In this document: piece by piece, positions 7,842-46,610 of the stretch
Layout: each line of letters begins with the position of its first letter
How positions within the stretch are numbered: the first letter of the stretch is position 1
DNA from: a virus
Strand: one strand, 5' to 3'
IMG/VR virus record: IMGVR_UViG_3300025674_000028
Coordinates: 1 to 64,000 of that record
Length of the DNA: 64,000 bases
Program-made: the position numbers and the translations under genes
Notes under the pieces: generated by a model
Database searches by the model: none
Seen by the model: only the letters and a program-made list of their open reading frames with translations
Told to the model about the DNA's origin: nothing

Positions 7842-7875
7842 TGACCGTCACAATGGAGGTATGGCGGTCAACAGT

Positions 7876-7884
7876 CTTATGTCC
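7876..7884 (-). promoter_or_regulatory. Putative phage promoter motif GGACATAAG
   Basis: AT-rich intergenic region; followed by ACTG-TTGACCGC, like the plus-strand copies. Confidence 0.7.
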
Positions 7885-7941: not shown

Positions 7942-7969
7942 TTTTGGACATAAGACCATTGACCGCACA
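7942..7969 (+). promoter_or_regulatory. Putative phage promoter (28-bp exact repeat of 35169-35196)
   Basis: TTTTGGACATAAGACCATTGACCGCACA, divergent from the 7876 copy. Confidence 0.75.
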
Positions 7970-21577: not shown

Positions 21578-22284
21578 GTAAATACCAATGGTAAGCCAGG
21601 ATAAGGCACGCCTGGCACAGCCGGCGTCGTTGCGGGCGGTGATGGATTTACGATTCCGCAGCCCAGCTGTATTGAATTTACCGCATCCACTACGGCACCA
21701 ACCATAGCATTTGCCATCAAAAACCTGTCAGTGCTCACGCCAAGGTCTGGGTCTGCGTTCCATGCAGCGAGGACTTGCGGGACAAACTGCTGGGCAGTCA
21801 ACGGCGCTCTTTGTAACTCTACAAATCCGGAGATGAGGTTAAGAAAGACGGGATCGGCAGGCGTCGCTGCGATTGAAAACGGACTGCTGTTTAAGGCCAT
21901 CAGCACTCCCATGGCGACCCCTGTCGGCAACGCAGCGGCAAAAGGCCCTGACCATGTGTTTTGAGCGGCAATGGACTGAGCATTGACCGGAACAATTGGA
22001 AGCCGTATTGCGATGTCTGCCTGCATCTGAGTAAGGCTGACAAAAGGCATTGGAGCTGGCGGTGACACGACCGCACTGGGCCCGCCTACGCTGCCAACAA
22101 AGATCCCAGCCTGGAAACCCGCGAGCACCTGCGGCCACATCACGTCCAGCATAATGTCTGCCATGCGATGTAAAGGGTTGAAGGGCACCTGCGTTGCACC
22201 GACAGCAATAGCGCCAGGGGCGCCAGCAGCGGTCAACTGCGCTTTCATCAAAGTGCCGACATATGGTGCTTGCGGTAAAGGCAT
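21574..22284 (-). CDS. Ala/Pro/Gly-rich baseplate-associated protein (start revised to ATG 22284)
   Basis: TGATG overlap with the spike gene stop. Confidence 0.55.
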   Translation of the reverse strand: MPLPQAPYVGTLMKAQLTAAGAPGAIAVGATQVPFNPLHRMADIMLDVMWPQVLAGFQAGIFVGSVGGPSAVVSPPAPMPFVSLTQMQADIAIRLPIVPVNAQSIAAQNTWSGPFAAALPTGVAMGVLMALNSSPFSIAATPADPVFLNLISGFVELQRAPLTAQQFVPQVLAAWNADPDLGVSTDRFLMANAMVGAVVDAVNSIQLGCGIVNPSPPATTPAVPGVPYPGLPLVFT

Positions 22285-24023
22285 CAGGTTGCAGCAATGG
22301 CTTCGGGCAATGAAGGCGTCGGTAATGGCGCGACAGCGGGAACGGCAACACCTGCGGTACCAATTGTCGGAGGACCTAACGACGATACAGTCAATGCCGC
22401 CGTTCCTAGAGGAGGCAAGCCAGTCACGTAGCATTTGTGACTTAAAGTCGTCACGGCATAACCAGCAGGGGTGGCAGGATTGGCAGAGCCGATGTGAATT
22501 TTACCAGTCACGTCACTGTGGACAGAGCCTCTAGAGCCGCCCAGTCCTGCCAACTGCCACGCGCCGTCCTGTTGCAAGACCAAGCGGCCGCCTACCTTCG
22601 TTCCCAACTCGACACGCCCAACAAATGCAGCCAAGCGTACCGGGTCGTTTATCATGCGCATATACCCCAGCGCTTGCCCCGCAGGTCCAATGTTTAACTC
22701 TAAGCTACCAGTCTCTACTTGCAGCAGACTCTTACCCCTCTTAACGATCGTCCTGTGACTGACAATGTCACGACCTGCGTTTTCCAGGGCATCGCCGCCC
22801 ATGACCCTCAGCGAGTATCGACCGCCGACTGCCGTCGACAAGGACTCACCGATTGAGCGCGTCATTGCACCGTCGGTGGCCGTAAGCGCGTGACCTCCAA
22901 TGATCGTGTTAAAATTCCCTTGAGTCTTCCAATCGCAACCCCCGTCAAAACTAAACGTGCCGTTGCTTGCGCGGTGAAAGTAATCTTTGGACTGGACGCG
23001 CATTTTTCCTGAAGCCAGGAACGACATTGCTCGCTTTGACTTCAATGACAGCTGTCCGGCGCTGGTGACCTCATACGCGCCTGCCGTCGTTTCATGCTTG
23101 ATCGAGTTTGCATTGACCACTTCACGGCCGTACACAGCGCTGGTCCTGTCTCTCGCCTCCATAAAGACGTGGCCCTTAGACCGTATCTGAATGTCGCCGC
23201 TCGCATACATGCGCACCAAGACCCTTGCTTGTCGAGGGTCAGGGGGATTTAAGCCTGCGCTGGCCTGGTTCTGAGCAAATGCCTGCTCAAAAATCATGAT
23301 GCGGACGCACGACCCAAATCCAAAGGCCTTCTGCGACACTGACGGATACCCAGCCGGCGGCAGGCTTTCATCTTCAAGGACTGCCCCTGCGTCTACAAAG
23401 ATATGAGGTGCCTGTTGCGCCAAGCTTTTAAGCTGAAGGCTCATGCCTGTAGGCGTCTCATCCTGCTCATCGCGCCCATCTTCGCGCAACGTCCAGTACC
23501 GTTGAGAGCCGAAAATGCCTTCAAGTACGAAGTTTTGACAGACCGTCTTAATGGTCTTTTCATCACGGAAAAAGGCTTGAGTACACAGTGGGTCAGCCTT
23601 TATTTCCATGTTGCCGTTGCGCCGAATCAGCATTTCGCCACCAGCCGGACCCATCATCCCCAATTCACCCGGCTGGAGAATCGGACGATCACCCCTGTAA
23701 TCATTTCGCGGCGTCGTTTCTGTGCCGTCCTCAGTGCCGTCAGTTGCTTTACGGTTTGGATAGGGGACGTAGTTGATGAGGATGTAATCCTCACTCATCT
23801 CAGGCTTAGCAAGCAAAGCAAGGTCGCCGACTTCAGGCAGAGCCCCCATCCAGCCGGGGCCTCTCAGCGAGACGTAGGAACCTCCAAGGATGACCTCCTC
23901 GACAGGAATCTCACTGTTCACCAACTGGGCAGAAACCGTATAGGTGTCTGGATTGACTGCGACGACAATCGCCATCCGCAACAACACGCGAAAATCAGAG
24001 TCGATTGCGCCGCGACTGACCAT
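22284..24023 (-). CDS. Baseplate central spike protein, gp5/VgrG/GpV-like
   Basis: N-terminal OB-fold pattern (IVVAVNPDTYTV...ALPEVGDLALL), Gly/Ser/Thr beta-helix-like repeats, C-terminal HKCYVTG tip motif. Confidence 0.7.
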   Translation of the reverse strand: MVSRGAIDSDFRVLLRMAIVVAVNPDTYTVSAQLVNSEIPVEEVILGGSYVSLRGPGWMGALPEVGDLALLAKPEMSEDYILINYVPYPNRKATDGTEDGTETTPRNDYRGDRPILQPGELGMMGPAGGEMLIRRNGNMEIKADPLCTQAFFRDEKTIKTVCQNFVLEGIFGSQRYWTLREDGRDEQDETPTGMSLQLKSLAQQAPHIFVDAGAVLEDESLPPAGYPSVSQKAFGFGSCVRIMIFEQAFAQNQASAGLNPPDPRQARVLVRMYASGDIQIRSKGHVFMEARDRTSAVYGREVVNANSIKHETTAGAYEVTSAGQLSLKSKRAMSFLASGKMRVQSKDYFHRASNGTFSFDGGCDWKTQGNFNTIIGGHALTATDGAMTRSIGESLSTAVGGRYSLRVMGGDALENAGRDIVSHRTIVKRGKSLLQVETGSLELNIGPAGQALGYMRMINDPVRLAAFVGRVELGTKVGGRLVLQQDGAWQLAGLGGSRGSVHSDVTGKIHIGSANPATPAGYAVTTLSHKCYVTGLPPLGTAALTVSSLGPPTIGTAGVAVPAVAPLPTPSLPEAIAAT

Positions 24024-24025
24024 GG

Positions 24026-27000
24026 CTAGTAGTCCCCTTGCTTGTTACGCGCCCCTCCTGCCTTTGATGCTCTGTTAAACTCAGCCGCATACGTCAACGC
24101 AGGGATTGGGTGCGTACTATGATAATTTGAAGTAGCGCCTGTTTGCGCTGCGTCTGTCAAGACTTGGCGGAGGTTGTTGTAGTTAAAGCGCGCTAAGAAG
24201 TCCTCCCGATACTCTCTCGGCGCGACGTCCACACCTCGCAGCAACGGCCGCACTGTCAGGTTTTTAAATGTCTTGTGAAGTTTCTTTGCTTGTGCTTCGG
24301 GAATCTTTTGACCGGGCAGCAGGTCTGCACCGCCAGGATCTGCAACCTCGACAGTGCCAGTCATGGCACGAACCACCCCTTCAACATTTCGCCGCAGCAC
24401 GCCCTTTTCCGCAAACAAGTTGCCAAGACGATTTGTCAGGTAGCCGCGAACCTTCTCCATGTCACCCGTGGCGTCTAAGATTTCCTTTGGGTTTGCCAGG
24501 CCGTCAGTCAAAACGTCGCCCTTCCCTATGCGTCTCCCCTTTTTGTAAAACCTCGGCGCATCGTACCCATCAGGAGCGTTGCGATTGCCGGGTAAAAAGA
24601 TGGTAGGGTTGGGGGCGTTGCCGGCTGTCTGTATCTTCAAATCCCAGCCGCCTTTTTCGCGATTTCTCTTTATGGTGTCGACCTTACCTGCGACTGGAGA
24701 CACCACTGCTTTTTGACCGCCCATGGTTCCTGGCATACGAAGCAACGCGCTTGCTTCTTGGAACAGGTTTTTCGCAGTGCTCGTGTCCCCTGGCTCGTAA
24801 ACGCCGCCAGCGTGGAAGGTAGACAGCGTAAGCTGAGTGGATCTTTCACCGATGGCCTGCGAAGCCAAGATGCCGAAGTTGTTGCCGATAGGCAGCGTCT
24901 TGCCGTTGGGTAATGCACCGACGCACTTCTGACACACACCTTCTTCAGCTTCACAGGTGGCAGGCGAGCGTACCTTAATCTTGCCTTGCCCCTTTTGGCG
25001 CATGAAAGACAGCACATTGCCGTCTACCAGTCTGTTGCGGTTCCAGCTTTTGTTGCCACTCTTCACGGAGGACGCCAAAAAACGTCCTTCTAAGTCGTCT
25101 TCCGGACGGTTGATGTCCACGTCAACGCCAGATTTGGTTCCACAATCTTCGACGGTGACTGTCATGTCCATCGCTGTGTTAATCAGCTGCTTTGTAAGAT
25201 AGCCAGGATCTTGAACCTCAATAACTTTTGACACTGTACCCATTCGAGCGCCGTGCAAAGTACCCCAGTAGCCCGTAGCGTCCAGTCCCTCGGTGTAGCT
25301 CTTCATAATCGGAGTGCCGACAACATCTCCCCGGCCATCCAGCACAGCGCCGGCGCCCATCATGACCTGTTGAAGCTGGACGGGCTTGACGCGAGCACCT
25401 GAAAAGGTCAACTCCGCGTTGACGTTGCTTCGCTGAGTTGGCTGACTTGTGATTCGACCCTTGAGGACATTCATGCCTCGTTTGTTGAGCTTACCTAGGA
25501 CGTCGTCAAAAATGCCGCGGATTGCACGCTGGTGCTCGTTCTGAGTGCGACTTGTTGCCTTTGCAATCTGCAACTTCTTCAGCAACGTCTTTTCAGCCGC
25601 CTCACGTTCTTTTTTTAGAACTGGCTTGAAGTCTTCCATTAAAAGAGTCGTGCCCGTCAACGTTGCTTGCTCAGCTCCAAGCGTACGAAGCCTGTTGGCG
25701 GCTCCACCGAAGGCCTCTGGCGTCTTTACCGCAATGTGAGTCGTCAGCTTTTTAATGTCCTTCTTTGACAGTCCGATGTCGCCATAATTCTGTGAAACGA
25801 TGCCGGCTGATTGGAGAGAATCAAGCGTCATGCCCGCAGGCAGCGCCTGGTTTACGAGCGATCGTCCAAGAGTTGTTCTCTGGCCGCCTACAGTAATCAA
25901 GTCATTGACGTCGATCTTGTCTTCAATAAACGCTTTGCGAGCGTCACCAACCTTCGAAAAACTGCCGACAGGCTTCTTTTGCACGGGATTCCGAGTGATC
26001 CTGTTCAATCCAAGAATCGCCTCGTGACTCAACGTGTATGCCAGGTCTCCTGACGCTAGGCTAAAGAGGTTTGCTTGCGGTCTGAGCTTTTCCTTTAACT
26101 CTCTGTTAGCTGCTTTTGAGACTGGAGCGAACACCGCCATCGTGTCGCCGTCATTGTCAGCACCAAACCCTCCGTATACCAACGGGTTCAATTGTATGGT
26201 CTTCTCATCCGTCAGGCGAGTACGAAAGCCCTGGAAGCCGTACTTGTGCAACACGGGATCTCGCTTAAGAGCGACCCAATTAGTTTTGACAGTTCGTTCA
26301 AGAATGCGGTCAACTTCCTTGTCTTTCTTGCCGTCTGATGCGTATTCGCCAAGTGCTTTATTGAATCGTCTGAGCTTGTCCCTACCTACAGTTGTCTTCC
26401 ATTGCGGGTGGCTTTTCTTGTATTCGGCTTCAAGCATTGGCCGATAGACTTTGACTGCCAGATTTCTCGGCAGTGCAATCTCGTCGATGTCCAAATCGCC
26501 ATTTGGCCCAATGACAGTGCGGCCGCTGAGAACTTGACGTCGCTGCACCAGCGTCTTTTTCAACAGAGATTGCTTGAGATCTCCGACCTCCCTGCCGTTT
26601 GTGACGGGGCGACGCCCTGTGATTGTGCCGACGATGCCTTGATACTCAGCGCCGCTTAAAGGAGCACTACCTTCGGTCTGCATAAGCTGCAGCATGCCAG
26701 CGTACAAACCCGACTCAAGCTCTGAAATGACCTTCTGCGGCAGTTTGCGCTTCTTTGCGTCCTTTAACTGCTCATCAATCATGGCAAGGTCACGATACAG
26801 GTAGTTCACGTCCCCAACGACAAAATCTCCGGAGTCCTTGTCGATTTTGAAGTCACGCATATTGGCAGGCAGTACAAGCACCTGCTTACGCATAAATGCT
26901 TCAGCTGGAGACAGTTTGTTGCGCTCAAGCATGTCTATAGTTTTGATTGTCCGGTAAGCGCTCGAACGCTTTGAGGCCTTCTTGTCATTCTTGGCGACGT

Positions 27001-30000
27001 CGTAGGCTTGCTTACGCACGCTTTTGAGGTCGACATTTTTGAGCATGTACTCTACGGCAGCAGCACCATATATCTCCTTGTCGCCGTCTTTGACTCCCTC
27101 AATGCCGGCCATAATGTTTTCGAACTGCTTCTTTTTCAGACCAAGTACGTCCCGGATTCCATTCTCGTACACTGGATTTGGGATGTTTTGTGAGAGCTCA
27201 AATCGAGACCAACGCTGACCTCCGCGACCTCCTGTCGCTTTGGGATCAAACAATCCACCCTTGTCTGGAGACATCGTACGTGCCGAAACAGTCCGAGTAG
27301 GACGCGCGATGACATTGTCCTGACCGTTGGTCTTGGACATAATCAGGACGTCACGGTCTGTTAAGGGCTTCATTCGAAGCTCGCTATGTTTAGCACTTCG
27401 CTCTACATCAATGCCCGCAGCTTTAAGGTAATTTTGGAACCGCACAAAAGCTCCGGGTACTCTACCTGGAGGCAAAGGCCGGCCGGCTGCCAGCGCATCC
27501 CACACTTCCGGGCGGTCTTCAGAACTGTAGAGCTGGGCAGAACGTAAAAACTCGCGTGCGTCCTGGGCAAGAAGACCGTAGGTTCCCAACTCACCGAGGC
27601 TTTGTGCGCCGTCTTTACCCTTACTGGCCAGTCCGGACTCTTGGAATGTGCCAACTCCGCGACCTTTGCTTTTGTGGTCAACTTGATGCTTAGCCTTGAG
27701 TATGTACTGATTCCCGACCCCGATGCTTTTAAGAGTCTTGCCTGATCGAGGGTCATACAAGTCCTCCCCGTCAGCGACGCCGGCCTCTTTCAGCTTTTGA
27801 GCAACAAAGTCCCAGTTCGACTCGTATTTGTAGTTCTCAACAATTTCAGGTGCGCCTGCTTTCTTTGCGATCTTACCTAAAAACGTCTCAAAGTTCTGGC
27901 TGGGGTTGATGCGTCCAGTCACCGCCGCAGGGTTATACAGAATCTCCAGGTGCTCGCCTGCACTGTTACGCGGCATTTCATCGTCAGGGACAATCTCAGC
28001 GATGGTTGCTTTGTTGGCGTGTCGGCCATAAACCTTGTCGCCGACTTCCATAGGCTCGACAGTCTTTACGTAGACTTTAGCGCCGATGACGTTGCCATCG
28101 CGGTCACGTTCTTTTGCAACGTCTACAACCTCGCCTCCATGACTGTGATCCCATCGTTTTTCAAAAAAACGACGCGCCCTCTTTGCGCCTCTACGGTCTT
28201 GAGTCTTGTAAAGCCCAACCTGCTTAGTCCGCTCCAACATCTCTTTGCCAGCAAGAGCGTCTGACTGATGTCCTACGAGGTAAAGGTCTCCAGGCTCTAT
28301 GATCGTACCGACTTTGATGACTCCGTCGTCATCCAGCTTCGTATCGATGTCCGTTGGAAGTGGCGTACTGACTGTCTTGCGCCAAAACTTCTTACCAAGA
28401 CGCATCGTATCGCTGGCGGCGCCTTCCTCATACATATGAAGGCTTGCCATTTTGTCAGCGGCTGATTGGCTGACGGTGATTGAATCCTCAAAGGTGGATG
28501 TATGGTAAGGCAAATATGCCGTTTTCAGGTTCACGCCCATTGCCAGTACGCCGTCCTTTGTAAACGTACTGTCTGCCAACAGGTCACCCTTTTTGATTTC
28601 ATCGCCGACCTTGACGGTCGGGGTAGAGTCGAGGGGGGCGCCACCGCCAAGCATCAGGTTTTTCGGCAGAGCAATTTGAACTGTCTTCCGCTTACCCTTT
28701 GGTAAAATCTCGATGTATCTCTCGCCCTTATCCTTATCCACAATGCGCTTGACGACACCGTCGTAAGCGGAGCGTACAGCGCCTGCCTCTTCAGCAAGTA
28801 ACGTCTCTGTGGAGTGAGTGACGCCGTCAAATTTGGTTTGCACTAACGGGGCTTCGCGGCGCAGCAGAGGCACAGATTGAGTCGTTTGCTTGTCGCTGTA
28901 GCCGATACGGCCGCCCTGAATGCTGTTTACAAAGGGAATGAGCGCACTGTTGGTGTCGAAGAGGCTTGCACTGTCTTTGAGGTAGTATGCGACCTCTGAC
29001 GGCTTTACACGAACAATCTCGCCATCTCTCCAACCCTTGACCATGCCTTGAGCATCGACTTTAGGCTTAAACTTGCCTCCGTCCTTGGTCCACTGATCAA
29101 ATGCTCCAATGACTTTGCCGACCAGCTTATCTGGACTGACGTCAACGCTGCGCCCTGATGGTGACAACATGTCGGCCATCAGCTTGCTGTGGCCGATATT
29201 TCGATCCGTCACGGATGAAGTATCTTTTACGATCCTCGTGCGAATTGGCACATTTAGGATGACGCCGGCCCGACCCGACTCCGGCGTGTGGACAGGATCA
29301 AGAAATCCAACACTGCCAGGATTAAGTAACTTGGCGTCTTTTGGAATGGCCATCTCCGCGCCAATTGCGCCCTCGCCCATGATGGTCGTCGAGGTGGCTT
29401 GTCCAAACGCGTCTAAAGGCGTCGTACTTGTATCTGTACGTTGCACCATGGACGTTGACGCTCGTCCTTTGATGTTTTTCTCAAAAGGACTGCCAATCAA
29501 CTGATCAACTTTGATGGGAGTTTTGTTGTCAGTATATCGACGCAGACGTGATTCGATGCCCCTGACATACTTTCTAACAGTGGACTCACGTCCCACTGAC
29601 TCCGCGAGCAAGTCAGCCGGACTGTAAATTTTCTTCAGTGCAATCGACTCACGGTCATCCTCGGGTTCGCCGTTTGCGACTTGTTGAAGTCTGGAAAAAC
29701 TGGCAAGCAACGTCTTTGCGCTTATGCGGTCTGACTTAGTGCCAAGTGTGACTGCCGTGATGGATGGGTCGACGCGGCTTGTGTTGAACTGATCTTTGAG
29801 TTGAGTAATGACTGCATCAAACTCGATGTCGTCTTTTTGCCTTTTGTACCGGGGGAAGACCTGACCGTACAGGTTTCGCATGGACTTCTCAAAACGCTCA
29901 TCTGTACTCTGACTTATGATTGCCTTAGCGGTCTTTTTGCCTACGGCCTTTTCTAAGTCTTCGTTTTTAGCGCCGAGCAGCTTAGCGATGTCCCAGACCG

Positions 30001-30664
30001 GGATTGATTTGCTGCTCTTGTACAGCAGCTTAAAGTCAGGATCGTCACCCGTGCGGTCAAACAAGACTTTAAAGCTGCGCACGTTGCTTGATGTCGCCGG
30101 GTCAACGTTAAACTCAGTGACGATGTCGCCTGACTCGTTCGTGCGCGTAAATACACCAGGCTTACGACGCCACTGATGCATCATGAAGCGTTTTTTCCCG
30201 TCGACAATAAACGATCGGTCAAAGACCGGCGTCGGAATCTGACCAAGCTGCACTCTCTTGCTGCTGACCACCTTGCCTGTCTTGGTATCAACCACTTCAA
30301 AGTCACCAAAGGCGCGGACGCCATATGTCGACTTCACGCGGCCCTTTGGCTCTCGCAGCGTTTGATAGATTTTTTTGTAGTCTCTAGGGTCTGGGATGTC
30401 TGTGTGTTGGATGTCGCCCTTTAGTCTAAGACTGTACCTCCCGCCTTCAATCGGTTGATCGTAGGTCCGCTGCATCGCTTGCACGACCTCTTTCACCACA
30501 GTCTCTGCGGTCTCTGCGGGGTCAGGCAAGCTGCGAAAGGTTTCTAGAAATTCTTGACGCTGAGGGCTGACCGCTGTCGCTTCTGACAGCTTCTCTACAA
30601 ATGACTGCTCTTCCGCATCCCACAATACTACGTCGCTCTCAGGCGTATCTGGAAAGTCAGTCAT
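24026..30664 (-). CDS. rpoBC: DNA-directed RNA polymerase, beta-beta' single-chain fusion (start revised to ATG 30664)
   Basis: Beta motifs: FIVDG..RRKPGVF, PVHTPESG, LIPF..QSVPL, FEDSITVS, GDKVYGRHANK, YILKAKH, GAQSLGE. Beta' motifs follow in frame: GGLFD, RDPVLH, GADNDGD, HGAR..GYLT, RSPATC..CQKC, QAIGERSTQLTLSTFHAGG. GAGG SD before 30664. Confidence 0.96.
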   Translation of the reverse strand: MTDFPDTPESDVVLWDAEEQSFVEKLSEATAVSPQRQEFLETFRSLPDPAETAETVVKEVVQAMQRTYDQPIEGGRYSLRLKGDIQHTDIPDPRDYKKIYQTLREPKGRVKSTYGVRAFGDFEVVDTKTGKVVSSKRVQLGQIPTPVFDRSFIVDGKKRFMMHQWRRKPGVFTRTNESGDIVTEFNVDPATSSNVRSFKVLFDRTGDDPDFKLLYKSSKSIPVWDIAKLLGAKNEDLEKAVGKKTAKAIISQSTDERFEKSMRNLYGQVFPRYKRQKDDIEFDAVITQLKDQFNTSRVDPSITAVTLGTKSDRISAKTLLASFSRLQQVANGEPEDDRESIALKKIYSPADLLAESVGRESTVRKYVRGIESRLRRYTDNKTPIKVDQLIGSPFEKNIKGRASTSMVQRTDTSTTPLDAFGQATSTTIMGEGAIGAEMAIPKDAKLLNPGSVGFLDPVHTPESGRAGVILNVPIRTRIVKDTSSVTDRNIGHSKLMADMLSPSGRSVDVSPDKLVGKVIGAFDQWTKDGGKFKPKVDAQGMVKGWRDGEIVRVKPSEVAYYLKDSASLFDTNSALIPFVNSIQGGRIGYSDKQTTQSVPLLRREAPLVQTKFDGVTHSTETLLAEEAGAVRSAYDGVVKRIVDKDKGERYIEILPKGKRKTVQIALPKNLMLGGGAPLDSTPTVKVGDEIKKGDLLADSTFTKDGVLAMGVNLKTAYLPYHTSTFEDSITVSQSAADKMASLHMYEEGAASDTMRLGKKFWRKTVSTPLPTDIDTKLDDDGVIKVGTIIEPGDLYLVGHQSDALAGKEMLERTKQVGLYKTQDRRGAKRARRFFEKRWDHSHGGEVVDVAKERDRDGNVIGAKVYVKTVEPMEVGDKVYGRHANKATIAEIVPDDEMPRNSAGEHLEILYNPAAVTGRINPSQNFETFLGKIAKKAGAPEIVENYKYESNWDFVAQKLKEAGVADGEDLYDPRSGKTLKSIGVGNQYILKAKHQVDHKSKGRGVGTFQESGLASKGKDGAQSLGELGTYGLLAQDAREFLRSAQLYSSEDRPEVWDALAAGRPLPPGRVPGAFVRFQNYLKAAGIDVERSAKHSELRMKPLTDRDVLIMSKTNGQDNVIARPTRTVSARTMSPDKGGLFDPKATGGRGGQRWSRFELSQNIPNPVYENGIRDVLGLKKKQFENIMAGIEGVKDGDKEIYGAAAVEYMLKNVDLKSVRKQAYDVAKNDKKASKRSSAYRTIKTIDMLERNKLSPAEAFMRKQVLVLPANMRDFKIDKDSGDFVVGDVNYLYRDLAMIDEQLKDAKKRKLPQKVISELESGLYAGMLQLMQTEGSAPLSGAEYQGIVGTITGRRPVTNGREVGDLKQSLLKKTLVQRRQVLSGRTVIGPNGDLDIDEIALPRNLAVKVYRPMLEAEYKKSHPQWKTTVGRDKLRRFNKALGEYASDGKKDKEVDRILERTVKTNWVALKRDPVLHKYGFQGFRTRLTDEKTIQLNPLVYGGFGADNDGDTMAVFAPVSKAANRELKEKLRPQANLFSLASGDLAYTLSHEAILGLNRITRNPVQKKPVGSFSKVGDARKAFIEDKIDVNDLITVGGQRTTLGRSLVNQALPAGMTLDSLQSAGIVSQNYGDIGLSKKDIKKLTTHIAVKTPEAFGGAANRLRTLGAEQATLTGTTLLMEDFKPVLKKEREAAEKTLLKKLQIAKATSRTQNEHQRAIRGIFDDVLGKLNKRGMNVLKGRITSQPTQRSNVNAELTFSGARVKPVQLQQVMMGAGAVLDGRGDVVGTPIMKSYTEGLDATGYWGTLHGARMGTVSKVIEVQDPGYLTKQLINTAMDMTVTVEDCGTKSGVDVDINRPEDDLEGRFLASSVKSGNKSWNRNRLVDGNVLSFMRQKGQGKIKVRSPATCEAEEGVCQKCVGALPNGKTLPIGNNFGILASQAIGERSTQLTLSTFHAGGVYEPGDTSTAKNLFQEASALLRMPGTMGGQKAVVSPVAGKVDTIKRNREKGGWDLKIQTAGNAPNPTIFLPGNRNAPDGYDAPRFYKKGRRIGKGDVLTDGLANPKEILDATGDMEKVRGYLTNRLGNLFAEKGVLRRNVEGVVRAMTGTVEVADPGGADLLPGQKIPEAQAKKLHKTFKNLTVRPLLRGVDVAPREYREDFLARFNYNNLRQVLTDAAQTGATSNYHSTHPIPALTYAAEFNRASKAGGARNKQGDY

Positions 30665-30677
30665 GTTGTCCTCTTTG

Positions 30678-32948
30678 TTAGAAATTTGAGCCGTAGTCTC
30701 GAGTCTCTGCTCGGTTATGGCCCTTAGCGTAAACAGACCTTTCGCCCATGTATGCCTGGCCCATGTAAAGCTGAGATTGGACAGCAGTGGCGATATCCAT
30801 GCCCATGTCATCCTGAATCTGCTGAATCATACCAGGCCAGTGCATAGGGTCTACATTGCCAAACATTCTGACAAGCCGGGCAACATAATCACTGTCATCA
30901 TCGTTAGAAGACGGTGAAGGCTCTGGAGTTGCGTTTGGGTCGTTTACAAAATCCCCCAGCAACATTTTCACAGCTTGTGGATCTACAGCATCCAGAGTCA
31001 TCTGCGCACTTTGATCTGCTGCTGCTTGAGGAGCGACCATTTGAGGGATAGGCGTCTGCGGCGTCTCTGACTGTATTGCCCTGTTAGACAGTTGAGACAC
31101 TTCCGCGCTGTTGGGTCCAAAGATAGACGCAGCGAGCTCAGGACTGGCCATGACATGCTGGTACATCTGCGGATCTGACCGAACGCGCTCAGCCAACTTC
31201 TTCGCCTCTTCCAGCATCGTCTCCTGGCCTTTAACTTGACCTTCGGCTTGCCCCATCGTCTGACGCAACATGATCTCCTGCTGCGTTCTGGCGTCAAGCT
31301 TCATGCGGTTGCGCTGCAACTCCATCTCAAACATGACATCTTCACGGATGTCTTGACGCTCAGATTCTGTGTCAATACGAAGCAAACGGTGAAGACGTCG
31401 TGTACCGACGGCATACTGGCCTTTGAGTGATGCGATCATCTGAATAAAGGGCAAGTCCTGACCGAGTCGGAATTCGTCAAATTCAACAATGACGTCTGGC
31501 CACCCCATCACTTCACAAATCCTACGCACGACCCACTTATTCATCGCCAATAGGTCTGCTCGATAGTCCTCCAGCTTTTTAATCATCTGCTGGATGCTGA
31601 CGTCGCTTCCACTGTAAGACAAGCCGCCGAAGATAAACTCAATAGGACATTCAAGCGCTGCACACAGAATCTCCATGTACACTCTGATTTCAGACGACAA
31701 CAGCAGCGCTTTACCATCCCCGCCTACCCTGGTCGAGGCTACAGGAAATGGCATGACGGGGCGGTAGTTTGGATCTTGCCTGTGCTGGGCCAACTCGCCT
31801 CGGATGACGTCCATGTAGTTTGCGACGTTGATCATCTCAAACAAGTTGCCACTTCGCGCCGAAGACTCTGGATAGACAATGTCTAGGGGGTAGATGTGCA
31901 GGTTACTGATCGATTCGCTGGCACGCTGAAGCTGCCGCATTTGCCAGTAGTCTTTGAGACTCGACAGGAATGCGGGCATGGGCAGGCCGTGCTTCGCAAA
32001 CTCCAAGTGGACATTGCGCATCAGGTAAAACTGGTCATCGCGCAACTTGACAAAGGGCTTGTCAGACATCCACCCGCCATATCGACGCAATCCCAGTGCT
32101 GCTTCAATGTATGCCTGAGGCTGGCGCAAGATAAACGCCCGATCCCCGTACTCCTTCGAGCGCAGCCGCTCAATGGTATGCGAGTCGATCTTTAAGTAGA
32201 CATCGACATCGTCGCCAGCACCACTTTTGAGCGTATGGACCATGCTCATGTCTGGGACGCTCAGCTTCACGTCGTGCGGGGAACGGATGTAGCGATCCGT
32301 CACCATTTTTGGGCCTTTGCTACTGCAATGTATGCAGCACGCCTCAAATCGTCCGTCTTCCTTCAATTCCCAGTCCGATTGATCAGCCCTAAAGGTCTTC
32401 GTGCAATCTGGACAGGTCAGCATCTTAATGAAGGGGAAATGTATTTGGACGACACTGCTGCTGTACGTCCAAAACTGAACCCCCACGCGCTGATTAAACT
32501 TCTTAAGGCGCAAGTGATCGTCTAAGAGGGCCCGCACTCGATCAGTCAACGCATCCTCTGGCATTGCAAAGGAGTCAGTGCGTTCCTCACGGACCTTTTG
32601 ACCTCTACGGGGTGTGTGCCGCTTACTCTTTATGACTGGATCAGTGGCGGGCAGGCACGCCATGTTTCGCACAAACGCTTTGTGGACAGGTGACCATATT
32701 GCCAGAAATTTACACAGCTTAAACATCTCCTGAGGGTCTTCAGGGATGGATAAGTTAGACAGGTCTGTAAAGGGCGAACTGCTGGGCACAAACCCGCCAA
32801 CGGAAGCGGCACCAGACCCTACTGTCGGCGAAGCGTTGTAGCCATTGCTTACATACTCAGAAAGGCTATCATTCATGCCTCGAGGAGACAGTCCAGTGCG
32901 AGGCAGCCTGGGCTTGTTTAATGCGGGCGGTCCTACGATGTTTGCCAC
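30678..32948 (-). CDS. Portal protein with Zn-ribbon insertion
   Basis: 756 aa; portal-like layout (GLP-like motif, CPIEFIFGGLSYSGS, VEFDEF, coiled-coil C-terminus); CPDC...CIHC insert; GAGGTG SD before GTG. Confidence 0.75.
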   Translation of the reverse strand: MANIVGPPALNKPRLPRTGLSPRGMNDSLSEYVSNGYNASPTVGSGAASVGGFVPSSSPFTDLSNLSIPEDPQEMFKLCKFLAIWSPVHKAFVRNMACLPATDPVIKSKRHTPRRGQKVREERTDSFAMPEDALTDRVRALLDDHLRLKKFNQRVGVQFWTYSSSVVQIHFPFIKMLTCPDCTKTFRADQSDWELKEDGRFEACCIHCSSKGPKMVTDRYIRSPHDVKLSVPDMSMVHTLKSGAGDDVDVYLKIDSHTIERLRSKEYGDRAFILRQPQAYIEAALGLRRYGGWMSDKPFVKLRDDQFYLMRNVHLEFAKHGLPMPAFLSSLKDYWQMRQLQRASESISNLHIYPLDIVYPESSARSGNLFEMINVANYMDVIRGELAQHRQDPNYRPVMPFPVASTRVGGDGKALLLSSEIRVYMEILCAALECPIEFIFGGLSYSGSDVSIQQMIKKLEDYRADLLAMNKWVVRRICEVMGWPDVIVEFDEFRLGQDLPFIQMIASLKGQYAVGTRRLHRLLRIDTESERQDIREDVMFEMELQRNRMKLDARTQQEIMLRQTMGQAEGQVKGQETMLEEAKKLAERVRSDPQMYQHVMASPELAASIFGPNSAEVSQLSNRAIQSETPQTPIPQMVAPQAAADQSAQMTLDAVDPQAVKMLLGDFVNDPNATPEPSPSSNDDDSDYVARLVRMFGNVDPMHWPGMIQQIQDDMGMDIATAVQSQLYMGQAYMGERSVYAKGHNRAETRDYGSNF

Positions 32949-32952
32949 AATA

Positions 32953-33840
32953 TCACCTCATAGCCTCGGCAATCTGCTCTGATAGCTTTTCAAGCACCAA
33001 CTCACGAGCAACTTCTCCTCGATGGTACAACTGATTAAAGCGCCCATGGAAGTCGAGTACTCGAATAACTTGTATTCTCGTAATCAGCTCTCGCTCTGAA
33101 ATACCTTCTTCATCAGGGTCAGCTGCATCGTCACTGCCTTTTTGATCTATCAACAAGCCAATGACGCGCTTTTGGACGGCATCAACGTCTGCTCTACCGA
33201 CTGGTATGCGCAAATACTGGAGGTTTTGATATACAGCGTCTTGCGCCATTGCCAAGATCTCTGGCAGGCACCACGTCCCGTGGTATAGACAACATGAAGC
33301 AATGGCGCCCATCACCTGATCGGAGAAGCCGTGCGGTCTAAACTCCAAGGCAATGTGGGCGGCAATAGCTATCTCAACGGGCGTCGGCACACACATCTCG
33401 CCCCACTTCACAGGGCGCCCCATAAGCGCACACGTCATGAACAAAAAGCTGTTCCAGTCGCGGTAAAAGGGGTTGTTGTGAAGAGGGGCGCGCAAGAGGC
33501 ACCAGAGCGCCATCAACTTACTGTGTCCCGGTCCGTCGAAAAAGTAATTGTCTTTTGCAAGCTCTTCGACAAGGACTTCCCATTCGTGCATCCACCACTG
33601 TTTGCCCAGCTTCGCGACAAGCAAGTAATACAGAGCCTCGCATGGAATGCGACCGACCCTGCGCCGAGACTCGTCGTCAGTCAGCTGTTCTAGCGCAATC
33701 TCTTCTTCGGAGTCGTCACGAGACAGGTCTACTTCCCAATCAAAGTGCACTACTTCGACGGGCGCAACACCAGTAAAAGGGTCTTCACCGTGCTTCTGGC
33801 GCACGCGCTCCAAAGCATCCTGAGGAGTAATTTCAACCAT
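32953..33840 (-). CDS. Hypothetical protein (head gene cluster)
   Basis: 295 aa; AAGGAG SD; directly upstream of the portal. Confidence 0.7.
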   Translation of the reverse strand: MVEITPQDALERVRQKHGEDPFTGVAPVEVVHFDWEVDLSRDDSEEEIALEQLTDDESRRRVGRIPCEALYYLLVAKLGKQWWMHEWEVLVEELAKDNYFFDGPGHSKLMALWCLLRAPLHNNPFYRDWNSFLFMTCALMGRPVKWGEMCVPTPVEIAIAAHIALEFRPHGFSDQVMGAIASCCLYHGTWCLPEILAMAQDAVYQNLQYLRIPVGRADVDAVQKRVIGLLIDQKGSDDAADPDEEGISERELITRIQVIRVLDFHGRFNQLYHRGEVARELVLEKLSEQIAEAMR

Positions 33841-33853
33841 GTTTTAGCGCTCC

Positions 33854-35092
33854 TTACGGACGCGCAGTGGGGCTTGGATACAAACGACCGCCACGGATAC
33901 GTTCGTTCATAAAGTTTGCCATCCAACGCTTCCCAGCTGCCGACAATTTTTCAAATGTGGCGATAGGGTCGGTGCGCAAGCCTTGTACGACATCGCTGCT
34001 GAAGATTTCTTTGACGTGCCTCAGGGGCATCAGCTCCAGCTGGTCAAAATCGCATTCTCGGAGAATGATTGCGCCTTCAGAGTAAACAACTGGACTGGCA
34101 GGCTTAGCCGACTGTTTTTCCATTGCGGTTGGAAAAAACACACTGAACGCAGGAGTGACTTTATCCTGGATGCCTAATGCTTCGTCTAAGCCAGACATCT
34201 GCATCGCAACGGATATGCCCTCTTCAATCGTCCACGGCGCGCTTCGCTTTTCCACTGTTGAAAGCAATCCTTCATACGCCGCAATGAGCCTATCGCCATT
34301 AGTCACAGTGTCAGCTGACAATTTGACTTGATCCAGCGCCTCTCTTCGCTCATCAACCATGTACGCGGCGTCCTGCCTGACACTCGTCAGGTCATGGGCG
34401 TGCTTCATCAGGCTGCGATGATATGTTTTTCCCACGCGGCTACGAATAGGATCTATTCCAAAATGCAGGTACCCGTCTATGAGTCCTACAGCCATAGTGT
34501 GCCGGGCGTAAGACGACAATTTGTGGGCGTTGCGATCAAGCCATAGGTGCGCGTCCTTTAAGTCAGATACTTTACGCACGGGCACAGAAACGTCCTGGCT
34601 GTCACGCAGCAGAGGATTTGCCGAGACTTTAATGAAGAACTCGACAGGGCCCTTGCCCTTTGTGCTCTTTTTTTGAAGAGAACGTGCAATGTTGAAGTCA
34701 GCATCCCATTCACTGTTCCACGCCCAATAACGACGTGCAGTGCCAGAGCAAACCATTTTTAGTTCGCGGGGAGCTTCAACCTGCATTTCACTCAGCCTGT
34801 TTACAAGCAATTTTGCTGCAGCTCCTGCCATGTCTGATGGGATGGCATCGTGAAGTCCCACTACGACCCCTGCACTGTGCTTTGCTAACGCGGCGGTGGC
34901 CATAGGTAACAGCCTGTGGACAGTGCCAGTTGGGCCGTGGCAAATCAGCGCAAACTCAGAGTCTGGCAAAGTTTCAAGTAAATCCTGAACCTCAGCGCTG
35001 CTGATCTTCAACATCGCGCTGTCTACTTCCCAGGGTAAGTTACAGAAACCATCATATGAGACATTTGCCCGTGGTGCGTCTGGTTGCTTCAT
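33854..35092 (-). CDS. Putative head-associated protein
   Basis: 412 aa with dense KxS motifs (LKISS, AKHSA, IKVSA, VKLSA, EKRSA, EKQSA, EKLSA). Confidence 0.6.
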   Translation of the reverse strand: MKQPDAPRANVSYDGFCNLPWEVDSAMLKISSAEVQDLLETLPDSEFALICHGPTGTVHRLLPMATAALAKHSAGVVVGLHDAIPSDMAGAAAKLLVNRLSEMQVEAPRELKMVCSGTARRYWAWNSEWDADFNIARSLQKKSTKGKGPVEFFIKVSANPLLRDSQDVSVPVRKVSDLKDAHLWLDRNAHKLSSYARHTMAVGLIDGYLHFGIDPIRSRVGKTYHRSLMKHAHDLTSVRQDAAYMVDERREALDQVKLSADTVTNGDRLIAAYEGLLSTVEKRSAPWTIEEGISVAMQMSGLDEALGIQDKVTPAFSVFFPTAMEKQSAKPASPVVYSEGAIILRECDFDQLELMPLRHVKEIFSSDVVQGLRTDPIATFEKLSAAGKRWMANFMNERIRGGRLYPSPTARP

Positions 35093-35168
35093 CGTTTTTT
35101 GGCTCCGAATTAGACGTCGTGCGGCAGCCCATCGCAGGCTTACAGATCAGTAGAGTACACGAAACTGT

Positions 35169-35196
35169 TTTTGGACATAAGACCATTGACCGCACA
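35169..35196 (+). promoter_or_regulatory. Putative phage promoter heading the replication block
   Basis: 28-bp exact repeat of 7942-7969, located at the strand switch. Confidence 0.75.
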
Positions 35197-35240
35197 CGCC
35201 GACCTGCGTGTGCACTTTGTAAACCACAGAGGAGAAGACA

Positions 35241-36011
35241 ATGGCAAACATTACTAATCTCAGCAACCGAGGGCTGAGTGAGGGCACGGGAAGCCAAGTG
35301 GGTACGTTTATCCCAAAGGAAAAGTTGTTTAACCTTTACACACAGACGCTGGCCGAGGCTCACCAGATCCGAGACCAGATGAAGTCTGTACCGCCCTCAG
35401 AGCCTCAATTCAAGGCACTGAAGACGAGATACGACTCGGCGCAGCAACGCCTTGTCGGACTCCAAGTGCTCGTTGACAAGCACGGATGGGCCAACGACTT
35501 GAAGAAGTACGCGGGCATCCAGCTGGCGCACGTCTACAACGTCGGCAGCCGGCAGCCGACAAGCCTCACAAGGTCAACGTCGGCGACCATGGACAGCCTT
35601 CGCCAGAAGTATGTCAACGACCCCGTCCGATGGACGACTGCCTTGCAGGAGGGGGAGCAAGCGATAAGTGAGGGGACTCAGTCTAATCAGCAGACGCTGC
35701 CAACCATCAGCCCGCAACTCCAAGGCACGGTGCAACTGAACAACTCAGGCGCGCAGATGGTCAGCGGCATGAACGCCGACTTTGCGCGACTGGCAAACAG
35801 CCAGCCTGCGCGACTGAACCTGATGCCTCCTGGCGCGGGTCGCGACAGCGTTGACTTCCTGAACATCTTCGTCGTCAATGGTCTTGCAGCAGGCATGACG
35901 TGGGCGGTGAACAAGATGGCGCAGGGTCACAACTTCTTTGCACCGACCACGCCGGCCCACGAGATGCACTTCCAGCAGCACTACTTCAAAACCGTCACCG
36001 GCAACGAGTGA
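35241..36011 (+). CDS. Gln-rich putative early protein
   Basis: GAGGAG SD; first gene after the promoter repeat. Confidence 0.75.
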   Translation: MANITNLSNRGLSEGTGSQVGTFIPKEKLFNLYTQTLAEAHQIRDQMKSVPPSEPQFKALKTRYDSAQQRLVGLQVLVDKHGWANDLKKYAGIQLAHVYNVGSRQPTSLTRSTSATMDSLRQKYVNDPVRWTTALQEGEQAISEGTQSNQQTLPTISPQLQGTVQLNNSGAQMVSGMNADFARLANSQPARLNLMPPGAGRDSVDFLNIFVVNGLAAGMTWAVNKMAQGHNFFAPTTPAHEMHFQQHYFKTVTGNE

Positions 36012-36022
36012 CATTCCTGACA

Positions 36023-36060
36023 TGCACCCCCCTTCGTCCTGTTGGGGCGAAGGGGGTGCA
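36023..36060 (+). other. Strong intergenic stem-loop (processing, stability or termination)
   Basis: TGCACCCCCCTTCGTCCT-GTT-GGGGCGAAGGGGGTGCA; no U-tract. Confidence 0.6.
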
Positions 36061-36083
36061 CAAGCATCTCCATGAGGTTTTAC

Positions 36084-36248
36084 ATGTCAAACCCTTTCAG
36101 TCCCTTCTTTACGGATGCGACACGCCAGATTTCCCAGCAGCAGTTGATGGCAATGCTGATGCGCATTGAGCAGAGACTTGCTGCGATCGAAAAAAGACTG
36201 GAGCAAATCCAGGCACAGCAAAACTCAAAACCGCAGGAGACAAAATGA
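36084..36248 (+). CDS. Small coiled-coil protein
   Basis: GAGGT SD before ATG 36084; LMRIEQRLAAIEKRLEQI heptads. Confidence 0.6.
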   Translation: MSNPFSPFFTDATRQISQQQLMAMLMRIEQRLAAIEKRLEQIQAQQNSKPQETK

Positions 36249-37360: not shown

Positions 37361-37649
37361 GCCTGCCCTTAAGCGCCTAGCCTTACTGGGCGTGATGGTG
37401 TGGAGACTTAAGAAAAGTCCACTGAGGCAAAAGCAACAACTTCGTAAGGATTTGCGTCAGGCTGGACACGACTTGCTCAACAACGTGCTCGCTGTTCTTG
37501 ACCCATTCTTAGATACTGTCGCTTCCTTTGAGTTTGATGAGTTGCAGGTACATCTTAAGAAAGAAGATGGTGACTCAATCAAAGTGTACGTCGAGATTTG
37601 CGGTGAACACCGCATACTGACGACGACCTGGCAGTTTGATGCCCTCTAA
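37326..37649 (+). CDS. Hypothetical protein
   Basis: GGAGG upstream; fills the operon gap. Confidence 0.55.
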   Translation: MEIPQALRRKVKPALKRLALLGVMVWRLKKSPLRQKQQLRKDLRQAGHDLLNNVLAVLDPFLDTVASFEFDELQVHLKKEDGDSIKVYVEICGEHRILTTTWQFDAL

Positions 37650-37663
37650 ATTTAGGAGTCCAA

Positions 37664-46537: not shown

Positions 46538-46610
46538 ATTCCCCTCACTCCCACTGCTTAGTGTGACCCCGTAAGTCAGTATCTGCTGACACAACATGAG
46601 GAGATTTAGC

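What the first reader, a model, noticed from the sequence alone, without database searches (positions are those of the whole stretch)
24026..30664. Single-chain beta-beta' RNA polymerase with divergent catalytic motifs and no beta' N-terminal Zn finger
All major beta regions run in frame into beta' (…AAGIDVE-RSAKHSELRMKPL…) in only ~2,200 aa. The catalytic NADFDGD reads GADNDGD, and the trigger loop QLTMRTFH reads QLTLSTFH. GLFCARIFGP plus its Cys4 finger is reduced to GLFDPKATGG with no cysteines. No alpha, omega or sigma gene is recognisable in the window. Established: a Caudovirales lineage encoding deeply branching, cellular-like multisubunit RNAPs is known and is distinct from the split phiKZ enzymes. 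Membership of this phage is inferred.
Basis: partly seen in the sequence, partly recalled or inferred. Interest (0 to 1): 0.75.

Follow-up and report, generated by a model that had tools for sequence, protein, structure and literature searches.

The report
Fused phage RNA polymerase with own sigma
An uncultured large phage encodes both big subunits of a bacterial-type RNA polymerase as one protein, lacks the usual helper subunits, and carries its own sigma-like factor, which would make a very simple transcription machine if it works as predicted.

Summary
A minus-strand gene at 24026-30664 encodes 2,212 aa that run from a full bacterial-type beta module into a beta' module. The motifs read as reported: GADNDGD, QLTLSTFH, and GLFDPKATGG with no Cys4 finger.

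It is not an assembly artefact. Contigs from 4 independent studies cross the junction unchanged. The junction lies in one reading frame in 74 of 76 related IMG/VR loci.

The protein does not nest among the bacterial beta' sequences sampled. An AU test rejects a common clade with bacterial fused rpoBC (p 7.7e-5).

Loss of the Zn finger is family-wide. The F-to-N change and the Ser in the trigger loop belong only to a 7-member subclade. The three catalytic Asp are invariant.

The same record encodes a divergent sigma70-family protein at 71311-72363. Its family is present in 17 of 18 genomes that carry the fused polymerase. Alpha and omega are absent.

The gene sits 13 nt downstream of a portal-like gene, and this order is conserved.

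Membership of the published mReC lineage is doubtful. Its Gp23-type capsid marker is absent here but present in phages with separate, Zn-finger-bearing subunits.

Best reading: an alpha-less fused core that works with a phage sigma.

The parts
24026..30664 (-). Gene for the fused beta-beta' RNA polymerase, 2,212 aa plus stop
   Evidence: ORF, translation, Pfam Rpb2_6, Rpb1_2 and Rpb1_5 in one chain, exact match in the own record
30669..30674 (-). Shine-Dalgarno-like AGAGGA, 4 nt before the ATG at 30664
   Evidence: Read from the sequence. Like boxes precede other genes
27401..30664 (-). Beta module (residues 1-1088): lobes, fork region, DPBB, flap region and C-terminal clamp part
   Evidence: phmmer to T. 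thermophilus beta residues 89-1101 of 1119. The AlphaFold model of residues 1-560 (pLDDT 87.6, pTM 0.84) matches bacterial beta chains over 540-580 columns (Foldseek E 1.7e-26, TMq 0.64-0.70)
29360..29455 (-). Equivalent of rifampicin cluster I (residues 404-435), strongly diverged
   Evidence: Alignment to T. thermophilus beta and family columns. The residue numbering of the E. coli hotspots is recalled
27362..27421 (-). Beta to beta' junction, AAGIDVE-RSAKHSELRMKPL (residues 1082-1101); short in-frame linker
   Evidence: The junction is in one tblastn segment in 74 of 76 related loci. It is bridged without differences by contigs of 4 runs from 4 studies
24029..27400 (-). Beta' module (residues 1089-2212)
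   Evidence: phmmer to bacterial beta' from about E. coli residue 168 to the C-terminal region (E 2e-76). Pfam Rpb1_1 (weak), Rpb1_2 and Rpb1_5
27227..27256 (-). GLFDPKATGG (residues 1137-1146): the place where the beta' Cys4 zinc-binding domain is missing
   Evidence: No Cys4 in 41 of 41 family members, nor in Arash, D69 and P0058. CxC...CxxC is present in 5 of 5 bacterial fused proteins and in 4 of 4 Gp23-type phage beta'
26696..26791 (-). Clamp-helices region (residues 1292-1323), predicted docking site for the sigma-like protein
   Evidence: Aligned to T. thermophilus beta' 546-580. It is the interface in the predicted complex
26144..26164 (-). Catalytic loop GADNDGD (residues 1501-1507); three Asp intact
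   Evidence: D1503, D1505 and D1507 are invariant in 41 of 41. F to N/S/V occurs only in 7 of 41
24923..25144 (-). Second beta' zinc site retained (C1841, C1904, C1911, C1914)
   Evidence: Each Cys is present in 40 of 41 family members
24812..24835 (-). Trigger-loop motif QLTLSTFH (residues 1944-1951)
   Evidence: His is invariant. The position of the bacterial Arg is variable in the family, and is Ser in the subclade
30678..32948 (-). Portal-like gene (756 aa) ending 13 nt before the polymerase start
   Evidence: tblastn to Arash gp204 'portal protein' and its D69 counterpart (E 8e-31 and 6e-41). A homologue lies upstream on the same strand in 56 of 76 loci. The Atlas gives portal clusters at feature score 0.92-0.93 and structural TM 0.60/0.71. 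There is no Pfam or PDB sequence match

Best explanation
The gene encodes the catalytic core of a phage-specific, bacterial-type DNA-dependent RNA polymerase. Beta and beta' are made as one 2,212-aa polypeptide.

Shown here:
- Both modules are near full size and of bacterial architecture.
- The Mg-binding Asp triad, the trigger-loop His and the second zinc site are kept.
- The N-terminal beta' zinc finger is deleted in the whole family.
- The family's genomes encode no alpha or omega, and only one such polymerase each.
- Nearly all of them, including this record (positions 71311-72363, outside the window), encode one family of divergent sigma70-type proteins.

Inferred:
- The covalent beta to beta' link takes over the assembly role of the alpha dimer.
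- Promoter-specific initiation comes from the phage sigma-like protein docking on the retained beta' clamp helices. The holoenzyme would then have two polypeptides.
- The gene is translationally close-coupled to the portal-like gene, so the enzyme is probably made together with head proteins. Whether it is also packaged into virions is open.
- The subclade changes (N to G and F to N in NADFDGD; Met-Arg to Leu-Ser in the trigger loop) and the diverged rifampicin cluster suggest altered kinetics and natural rifampicin insensitivity. They do not suggest loss of activity.
For: - Architecture.
- Conserved catalytic residues, purifying conservation over 41 members and absence of the Zn finger.
- Fusion is real and lineage-wide: 50 fused proteins of 1,992-2,954 aa among the 120 listed hits. 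At least 145 relatives are in IMG/VR. The junction is in one segment in 74 of 76 loci. Four independent runs bridge the junction.
- One polymerase locus per genome in 18 of 18.
- No alpha: 0 of 1, 0 of 2, and 0 of 15 over the cut-off. No omega: 0 of 16. The controls gave a hit in 14 of 14 genomes.
- Sigma-like protein, sequence evidence: 69 significant relatives in 1.84 billion representatives. 25 of 47 relatives match Pfam Sigma70_r3. A profile of only the 19 closest relatives hits 60 PDB sequences, all named sigma factors, best RpoD at E 1.1e-8.
- Sigma-like protein, fold evidence: the model has pLDDT 81.8 and all listed Foldseek matches are sigma factors.
- Co-occurrence of the sigma-like family: 14 of 15 long records, 10 of 10 of those at least 90% complete, 2 of 2 isolates, and the own record. 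It is in 0 of 3 Gp23-type RNAP phages.
- Predicted complex of beta' residues 1106-1560 with sigma-like residues 100-350: score 0.64, best of 3 controls 0.00. That mark was reached by 58 of 80 solved complexes and 2 of 110 mismatched pairs. The runs agree in at least 32% of contacts, and the partner's pLDDT is at least 68. The interface is on the clamp helices. This is the textbook sigma2/clamp-helix pair, so the pass may reflect likeness to solved structures.
Against: - No experiment bears on activity, subunit content or promoter use.
- Single-sequence Pfam scans of the sigma-like protein give nothing. NCBIfam gives only 19 bits (FliA/WhiG, E 9e-4), far under its cut-off.
- Phage sigmas commonly redirect host polymerase, so co-occurrence does not prove partnership.
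- Absence of alpha and omega in phage genomes does not exclude use of the host's copies. In bacteria with natural beta-beta' fusions alpha is still used (recalled).
- The record is only about 40% complete.
- My tree uses only the beta' core (492 columns), a quick search, a bacterial sample drawn from best hits, and no archaeal or eukaryotic outgroup.
- A consensus sigma70 promoter scan around the gene shows no enrichment: 5 found, 8.8 expected.
Confidence: 0.62

Rival explanations
1. Sigma-independent single-chain enzyme. On this reading the fused protein finds promoters by itself or with a non-sigma factor, as in AR9 and phiKZ non-virion polymerases or crAss-like and YonO enzymes.
For: No sigma is recognisable by Pfam in the window or the record. 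The beta' zinc finger, which lies near sigma and upstream DNA in bacterial holoenzymes (recalled), is deleted.
Against: A sigma70-family gene is on the same contig and in 17 of 18 family genomes. The clamp helices are retained and are predicted to bind it.
Confidence: 0.08
2. The phage sigma-like proteins serve the host polymerase (as T4 gp55 or SPO1 gp28 do), not the phage enzyme. The fused core then uses another factor or acts only in elongation-type roles.
For: Phage sigmas that redirect host polymerase are common in large phages without their own polymerase (PMC7824862 and PMC7598289, passages read). Several family genomes carry two sigma-like genes.
Against: The divergent sigma family tracks the fused polymerase (17 of 18) and is absent from 3 of 3 other polymerase-encoding phages tested. 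It is a small family: 29 representatives at E up to 1e-10.
Confidence: 0.15
3. The fused core still borrows host alpha2 (and omega) for assembly and regulation.
For: The beta and beta' modules are full-size and bacterial in architecture. No phage substitute for alpha was identified.
Against: Relatives infect or occur with very different hosts and habitats (Salmonella, Vibrio, freshwater, marine). This makes dependence on one host's alpha interface less likely (inference). Alpha-less phage multisubunit polymerases are established (PMC7598289 abstract and passages).
Confidence: 0.15
4. Assembly chimera, or bacterial contamination carrying an rpoBC fusion.
For: None found beyond the general possibility for metagenome contigs.
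Against: Contigs of 4 runs from 4 studies bridge the junction with 0 differences and 0 gaps. The same junction is in 74 of 76 loci. The surrounding genes are phage genes. The family sits apart from bacteria (SH-aLRT 99). The AU test rejects a clade with bacterial fused proteins.
Confidence: 0.01

Closest known systems
mReC, multisubunit-RNAP-encoding Caudovirales (Weinheimer and Aylward 2020, PMC7481178; sections read, supplements closed)
   Same: Phage contigs encode beta and beta' that match cellular profiles and branch outside cellular clades. Genomes are large, and the lineage was found in IMG/VR and metagenomes.
   Different: The paper reports Gp23-type capsids (PF07068) and Terminase_6N, and does not mention a fusion of the mReC subunits. 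Here PF07068 is absent (own record, 15 long records, Arash, D69). It is present in 4 of 4 phages with separate beta/beta' that keep the Zn finger. The same authors later place multisubunit RNAP mainly in Chimalliviridae and Straboviridae (PMC11835377, passages).
Salmonella phage Arash (OQ632216.1) and Vibrio phages D69, D181, D148: nearest cultured relatives
   Same: The order portal-like gene then polymerase is the same. The beta to beta' junction is fused, the Zn finger is absent, and both carry the same divergent sigma family plus a canonical sigma. Genome size is about 180-187 kb.
   Different: Only 25-29% identical. Their beta' is cut after about residue 1600 into a second gene, with inserted ORFs between the two parts. 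They keep ADFDGD-type motifs on a different branch. I found no paper on them: a search for 'Salmonella phage Arash' gave 0 papers.
phiKZ / AR9 virion and non-virion polymerases
   Same: Phage multisubunit-type polymerases that work without alpha and omega (PMC7598289).
   Different: Those are split into 4-5 polypeptides, come in two sets per genome and have no recognisable sigma homologue. Here there is one fused chain, one set per genome and a sigma70-family partner.
Bacterial rpoB-rpoC fusions (Helicobacteraceae and Wolbachia, as stated in PMC7483510; fused MAG proteins P0057, P0059, P0060, P0063, P0065)
   Same: Beta C-terminus joined in frame to beta' N-terminus.
   Different: The bacterial fusions keep the Cys4 finger (5 of 5) and sit among bacterial beta'. 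The AU test rejects a common clade with the phage family. Bacteria keep alpha, omega and host sigmas.
crAss-like phage and YonO single-chain two-barrel polymerases
   Same: One polypeptide carries both catalytic barrels.
   Different: Those are so diverged that cellular profiles do not detect them (PMC7481178 text). This protein matches Pfam beta and beta' domains at E 1e-21 to 1e-39.

Membership tests
Bacterial-type multisubunit RNAP catalytic core (beta + beta') | Beta module with DPBB/Rpb2_6 and lobes | tested here: met
Bacterial-type multisubunit RNAP catalytic core (beta + beta') | Beta' DPBB with DxDGD Asp triad, bridge-helix and trigger-loop region | tested here: met
Bacterial-type multisubunit RNAP catalytic core (beta + beta') | Beta' N-terminal Cys4 zinc-binding domain | tested here: not met
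   Absent in 41 of 41 family members. Present in the bacterial and Gp23-type phage comparators
Bacterial-type multisubunit RNAP catalytic core (beta + beta') | Alpha dimer and omega encoded with it | tested here: not met
   Use of host copies is not testable here
mReC lineage (PMC7481178) | Phage contig with beta and beta' detectable by cellular profiles | tested here: met
mReC lineage (PMC7481178) | RNAP branches outside cellular clades | tested here: inconclusive
   Outside the 22 sampled bacterial beta' rows (SH-aLRT 99). There is no archaeal or eukaryotic outgroup, and no mReC reference sequences were available
mReC lineage (PMC7481178) | Major capsid protein of Gp23 type (PF07068) | tested here: not met
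   0 in the own record (40% complete), 0 of 15 long records, 0 of 2 isolates. Positive control: 4 of 4 other RNAP phages
mReC lineage (PMC7481178) | TerL of Terminase_6N type (PF03237) | tested here: inconclusive
   The own TerL has no match at E 0.1 and only a weak GpA_ATPase match. In the family's records (15 long records, Arash, D69) 7 of 17 match at E 0.01 and 2 are over the cut-off. The Rhizobium comparator scanned in the same call gave no match
mReC lineage (PMC7481178) | Listed among the 97 contigs of the paper | not testable with these tools
phiKZ/AR9-type phage RNAPs | Beta and beta' split into several polypeptides, two sets per genome, no sigma homologue | tested here: not met
Sigma70 family (for the 350-aa partner at record positions 71311-72363) | Regions 2, 3 and 4 recognisable | tested here: met
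   A profile of close relatives against the PDB hits only sigma factors. 25 of 47 relatives hit Sigma70_r3. Foldseek matches are all sigma factors. Single-sequence Pfam is negative
Sigma70 family (for the 350-aa partner at record positions 71311-72363) | Binds the beta' clamp helices of its core | tested here: inconclusive
   The predicted complex passes (0.64 against 0.00). The pair resembles solved complexes, and a prediction is not a measurement

The most novel reading that the evidence does not exclude
These roughly 170-210-kb phages run a self-sufficient two-polypeptide bacterial-type holoenzyme: one fused beta-beta' chain plus one dedicated, highly diverged sigma. It assembles without alpha, omega or the beta' zinc finger. 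It is made with, and possibly packaged through, the portal module, so the phage would transcribe independently of host polymerase. That would be the simplest known sigma-dependent multisubunit-type polymerase, and a lineage separate from the Gp23-type (Straboviridae-like) RNAP phages.
Probability: 0.4. Interest if true: 0.78.

Novelty: new variant of a known kind. Interest (0 to 1): 0.6.

Why it matters
How beta and beta' assemble and initiate without alpha is a standing question for phage multisubunit polymerases. The known alpha-less examples (phiKZ, AR9) are split into many pieces and use non-sigma factors.

This family offers the opposite solution. It has one chain, a clearly bacterial architecture and a recognisable sigma partner. 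It also has cultured members (Arash, D69-like Vibrio phages), so the question can be tested directly.

A two-gene, probably rifampicin-insensitive, sigma-directed polymerase would also be a candidate orthogonal transcription system.

For phage taxonomy, the data suggest that 'phages with cellular-type RNAP' comprise at least two lineages. They differ in capsid type, subunit organisation and presence of the Zn finger.

Tried and rejected
- PHROG and Pfam scans of ten neighbours on each side gave almost nothing beyond TerL, primase, PolA and a Cas4-like nuclease.
- The search for related loci with the single protein found no relative. With alignment A1 it worked.
- phmmer of the Arash sigma against all ORFs of the record found nothing (best E 0.32).
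- A profile of the portal-like family against the PDB, and Pfam scans of its 22 members, gave only chance-level hits. The portal reading rests on Arash's annotation and on Atlas leads.
- The consensus sigma70 promoter and terminator scan of 22000-37800 showed no enrichment.
- A second intergenic word, CCGACCTGGCG, is not above chance: 4 matches against 1.41 expected, and 5 of 100 shuffles reach it.
- My greedy gene caller mis-called genes, so I dropped it and set intergenic regions by hand.
- In one search three stop-to-stop lengths (49, 101, 1025 aa) are artefacts of where the segment began or of contig ends. I drew nothing from them.
- The reverse co-occurrence test (do records with the sigma-like gene always carry the polymerase?) could not be run. 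A2 and A3 were too diverse for pattern search, and the closer set A6 found no relative in IMG/VR.
- Literature: searches found no description of a fused beta-beta' in this phage group. Subscription journals and supplements are not covered.
- The tree left out 10 intein-bearing family rows and 43 rows at least 75% identical to a kept row. The clade for the AU test was named after the tree had been seen.

Full report
WHAT IS THERE

The window is part of a 73,229-bp IMG/VR virus record that CheckV rates about 40% complete. On the minus strand one frame is open from 30811 to 24026. The ATG at 30664 is the likely start. It is preceded by AGAGGA with a 4-nt spacer, and the upstream gene ends at 30678. 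The product has 2,212 aa.

Pfam finds beta domain 6 (residues 680-1008, E 7e-39) and beta' domains 2 and 5 (1376-1525 and 1793-2110; E 8e-21 and 6e-22) in the same chain.

The surrounding genes are phage genes:
- large terminase, 8763-10676
- primase, 40073-41254
- family A DNA polymerase, 43438-46059
- a Cas4-like nuclease, 46596-47441

IS THE FUSION REAL?

Yes, on four independent grounds.

1. A search of 5.8 billion proteins lists 50 fused proteins of 1,992-2,954 aa (28-63% identical) among the 120 best hits. The longer ones carry intein or LAGLIDADG domains.
2. IMG/VR holds at least 145 relatives. In the 76 loci fetched, the beta to beta' junction lies inside one tblastn segment in 74. The other two loci are truncated.
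3. Contigs from four sequencing runs of four different studies cover the junction (27362-27421) with no differences and no gaps. A fifth run that may be the source of this DNA was left out.
4. The linker is short and the beta' part begins at its conserved N-terminal segment.

WHAT KIND OF POLYMERASE?

The beta part aligns with T. thermophilus beta from residue 89 to 1101 of 1119. The least conserved part, the first 560 residues, was modelled with pLDDT 87.6 and pTM 0.84. The model superposes on bacterial beta chains over 540-580 columns (Foldseek E 1.7e-26, TMq up to 0.70). The lobes are therefore present.

The beta' part aligns with bacterial beta' from about E. coli residue 168 onwards, including the clamp helices, and it has no trigger-loop insertion.

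In an alignment of 41 family members:
- The three catalytic Asp and the trigger-loop His are invariant.
- The four Cys of the second zinc site are each present in 40 of 41.
- The N-terminal Cys4 finger is missing in all 41.

The finger is also missing in Arash, D69 and P0058. P0058 is the only one of the three unnamed fused proteins P0056/58/64 for which the motif region was located. The finger is present in 5 of 5 bacterial fused proteins, in 4 of 6 bacterial beta' checked (the other two were probably missed by my window), and in 4 of 4 other phage beta'.

Only 7 of 41 members have AD(N/S/V)DGD. These 7 form a clade with full support on a long stem. The position of the bacterial trigger-loop Arg varies across the family.

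The rifampicin cluster I equivalent is strongly diverged. By the alignment, the residues at the classical hotspots are T, Q and T (hotspot numbering recalled). I therefore expect insensitivity, as an inference.

PHYLOGENY

I built a beta' core tree: 492 columns, 68 rows, LG+C20 PMSF, quick search.
- One side of a branch with SH-aLRT 99 holds the fused family, together with Arash, D69 and three further unnamed fused proteins.
- The other side holds all 22 bacterial rows and four other phage enzymes (Carin-5, Rhizobium TM3_3_6, IME392, Vibrio 1.031.O).

Forcing the phage family into one clade with three bacterial fused proteins costs 89 log-likelihood units (p-AU 7.7e-5). I named that group after seeing the tree. 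The phage fusion is thus independent of the bacterial ones. The tree has no archaeal or eukaryotic outgroup and a biased bacterial sample, so 'deeply branching' is not shown here.

PARTNERS

Six-frame profile scans found no alpha N-terminal domain:
- own record: none
- Arash and D69: 0 of 2
- 15 long records: 0 over the cut-off, with one E 0.02 fragment containing stops
.

They found no omega in 0 of 16. The controls were positive in 14 of 14 genomes. Each of 18 genomes has a single polymerase locus.

Sigma is different. Arash and D69 each encode a protein over the Sigma70_r2 cut-off; Arash gp196 is annotated as a sigma factor. 5 of 15 long records do so too.

In this record a weak hit led to a 350-aa ORF at 71311-72363, outside the window (TIGR02937 E 0.011; FliA/WhiG E 9e-4). 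The evidence that it belongs to the sigma70 family is:
- It has 69 significant relatives among 1.84 billion representatives.
- 25 of 47 aligned relatives match Sigma70_r3.
- A profile of only the 19 closest relatives hits 60 PDB sequences, all named sigma factors (best RpoD, E 1.1e-8).
- Its model has pLDDT 81.8, and all listed Foldseek hits are sigma factors (E from 7.6e-6). The TM-scores are low, as expected for a multi-domain chain.

This family is present in 14 of 15 long records (10 of 10 of those at least 90% complete), in Arash and D69, and in the own record. It is in none of three Gp23-type RNAP phages.

A predicted complex of beta' residues 1106-1560 with sigma-like residues 100-350 scored 0.64, against 0.00 for the best of three controls. 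That mark was reached by 58 of 80 solved complexes and 2 of 110 mismatched pairs. The runs agree in at least 32% of contacts, and the partner's pLDDT is at least 68. The interface lies on beta' 1292-1323, the clamp helices. This pair resembles solved holoenzymes, so the pass shows likeness, not binding.

CONTEXT

The 756-aa gene just upstream is homologous to Arash gp204 ('portal protein') and its D69 counterpart. A homologue lies upstream on the same strand in 56 of 76 loci. Atlas look-alikes are portal clusters, but sequence profiles give nothing.

The polymerase gene thus belongs to a 35-kb leftward block that also holds the terminase. That placement, and the 13-nt spacing, suggest co-expression with head genes. 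Packaging into virions is a hypothesis only.

RELATION TO WHAT IS KNOWN

The mReC paper (PMC7481178; abstract, introduction, results and parts of methods read) describes phage contigs with beta and beta', Gp23-type capsids (PF07068) and Terminase_6N. It mentions fusion only for crAss-like phages.

PF07068 is absent from this record, from 15 long relatives and from Arash and D69. It is found in 4 of 4 phages with separate, finger-bearing subunits, which also serves as the positive control. Later work by the same group places multisubunit RNAP mainly in Chimalliviridae and Straboviridae (PMC11835377, passages; PMC13282480, passages).

I therefore read the fused, finger-less, sigma-paired enzymes as a lineage of their own, or at least an undescribed one. 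The paper's contig list is in supplements that were closed, so I cannot exclude that some mReC contigs belong to it.

VERDICT

The most likely mechanism is an alpha-less fused core directed by a phage sigma. It is a new variant of a known kind, and it can be tested in cultured relatives.

Noticed in passing
window 7864-7884 (-), 7946-7966 (+), 35173-35193 (+): There are three exact copies of a 21-nt element, GGACATAAGACNNTTGACCGC (0.01 expected by chance). They lie in two divergent intergenic regions, 50-60 nt upstream of RBS plus ATG. The 11-nt core occurs 6 times against 0.63 expected. This is a candidate phage promoter or operator.
   Followed up: partly
own record 71311-72363 (-), i.e. L006:7311-8363, outside the window: A 350-aa divergent sigma70-family gene with an acidic, poorly modelled N-terminal 100 aa. 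It is the likely initiation factor of the polymerase.
   Followed up: yes
window 30678-32948 (-) and alignment A4: The portal-like protein family has four invariant Cys (C179, C182, C205, C208 in the window protein). This suggests a zinc ribbon inserted in a portal fold.
   Followed up: no
proteins P0003, P0004, P0007, P0008, P0026, P0031, P0035, P0049, P0052; loci L001, L003: Many family members are interrupted. Inteins or LAGLIDADG domains give chains of 2,600-2,950 aa. In Arash and D69 the beta' is cut after about residue 1600, with inserted ORFs between the parts. In D181 and D148 a homing endonuclease is annotated there.
   Followed up: partly
records G002, G005, G006, G009, and Arash and D69: Several complete relatives carry two different sigma-like genes at separate places. 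One is canonical (over the Sigma70_r2 cut-off) and one is of the divergent family. This hints at temporal classes of promoters.
   Followed up: partly
L007 (Cobetia phage Carin-5), L008, L009, L010: A second group of RNAP-encoding phages has separate beta' and beta, keeps the Cys4 finger and has Gp23-type capsids. In Carin-5 an annotated sigma gene lies directly upstream of the two subunit genes, and the first 'beta' CDS is in fact beta'.
   Followed up: partly
window 22284-24023 (-): The 579-aa gene just downstream of the polymerase has no family match. It has weak homologues downstream of the polymerase in 15 of 76 related loci.
   Followed up: no
window 26400-28400: Near-identical DNA is held by 20 listed runs from 13 studies. 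They are labelled freshwater, aquatic, seawater and oyster metagenomes, from 2017 to 2025. Seven runs hold at least half of the sampled words, so this phage or very close strains recur widely. Only four of these runs were laid.
   Followed up: partly
proteins P0057, P0059, P0060, P0063, P0065-P0067: Bacterial-type fused beta-beta' proteins of 2,231-2,927 aa are found in metagenome-assembled bacteria. Two are named Omnitrophica and Elusimicrobia by their source. They have an intact Cys4 finger. These are further natural rpoBC fusions.
   Followed up: no
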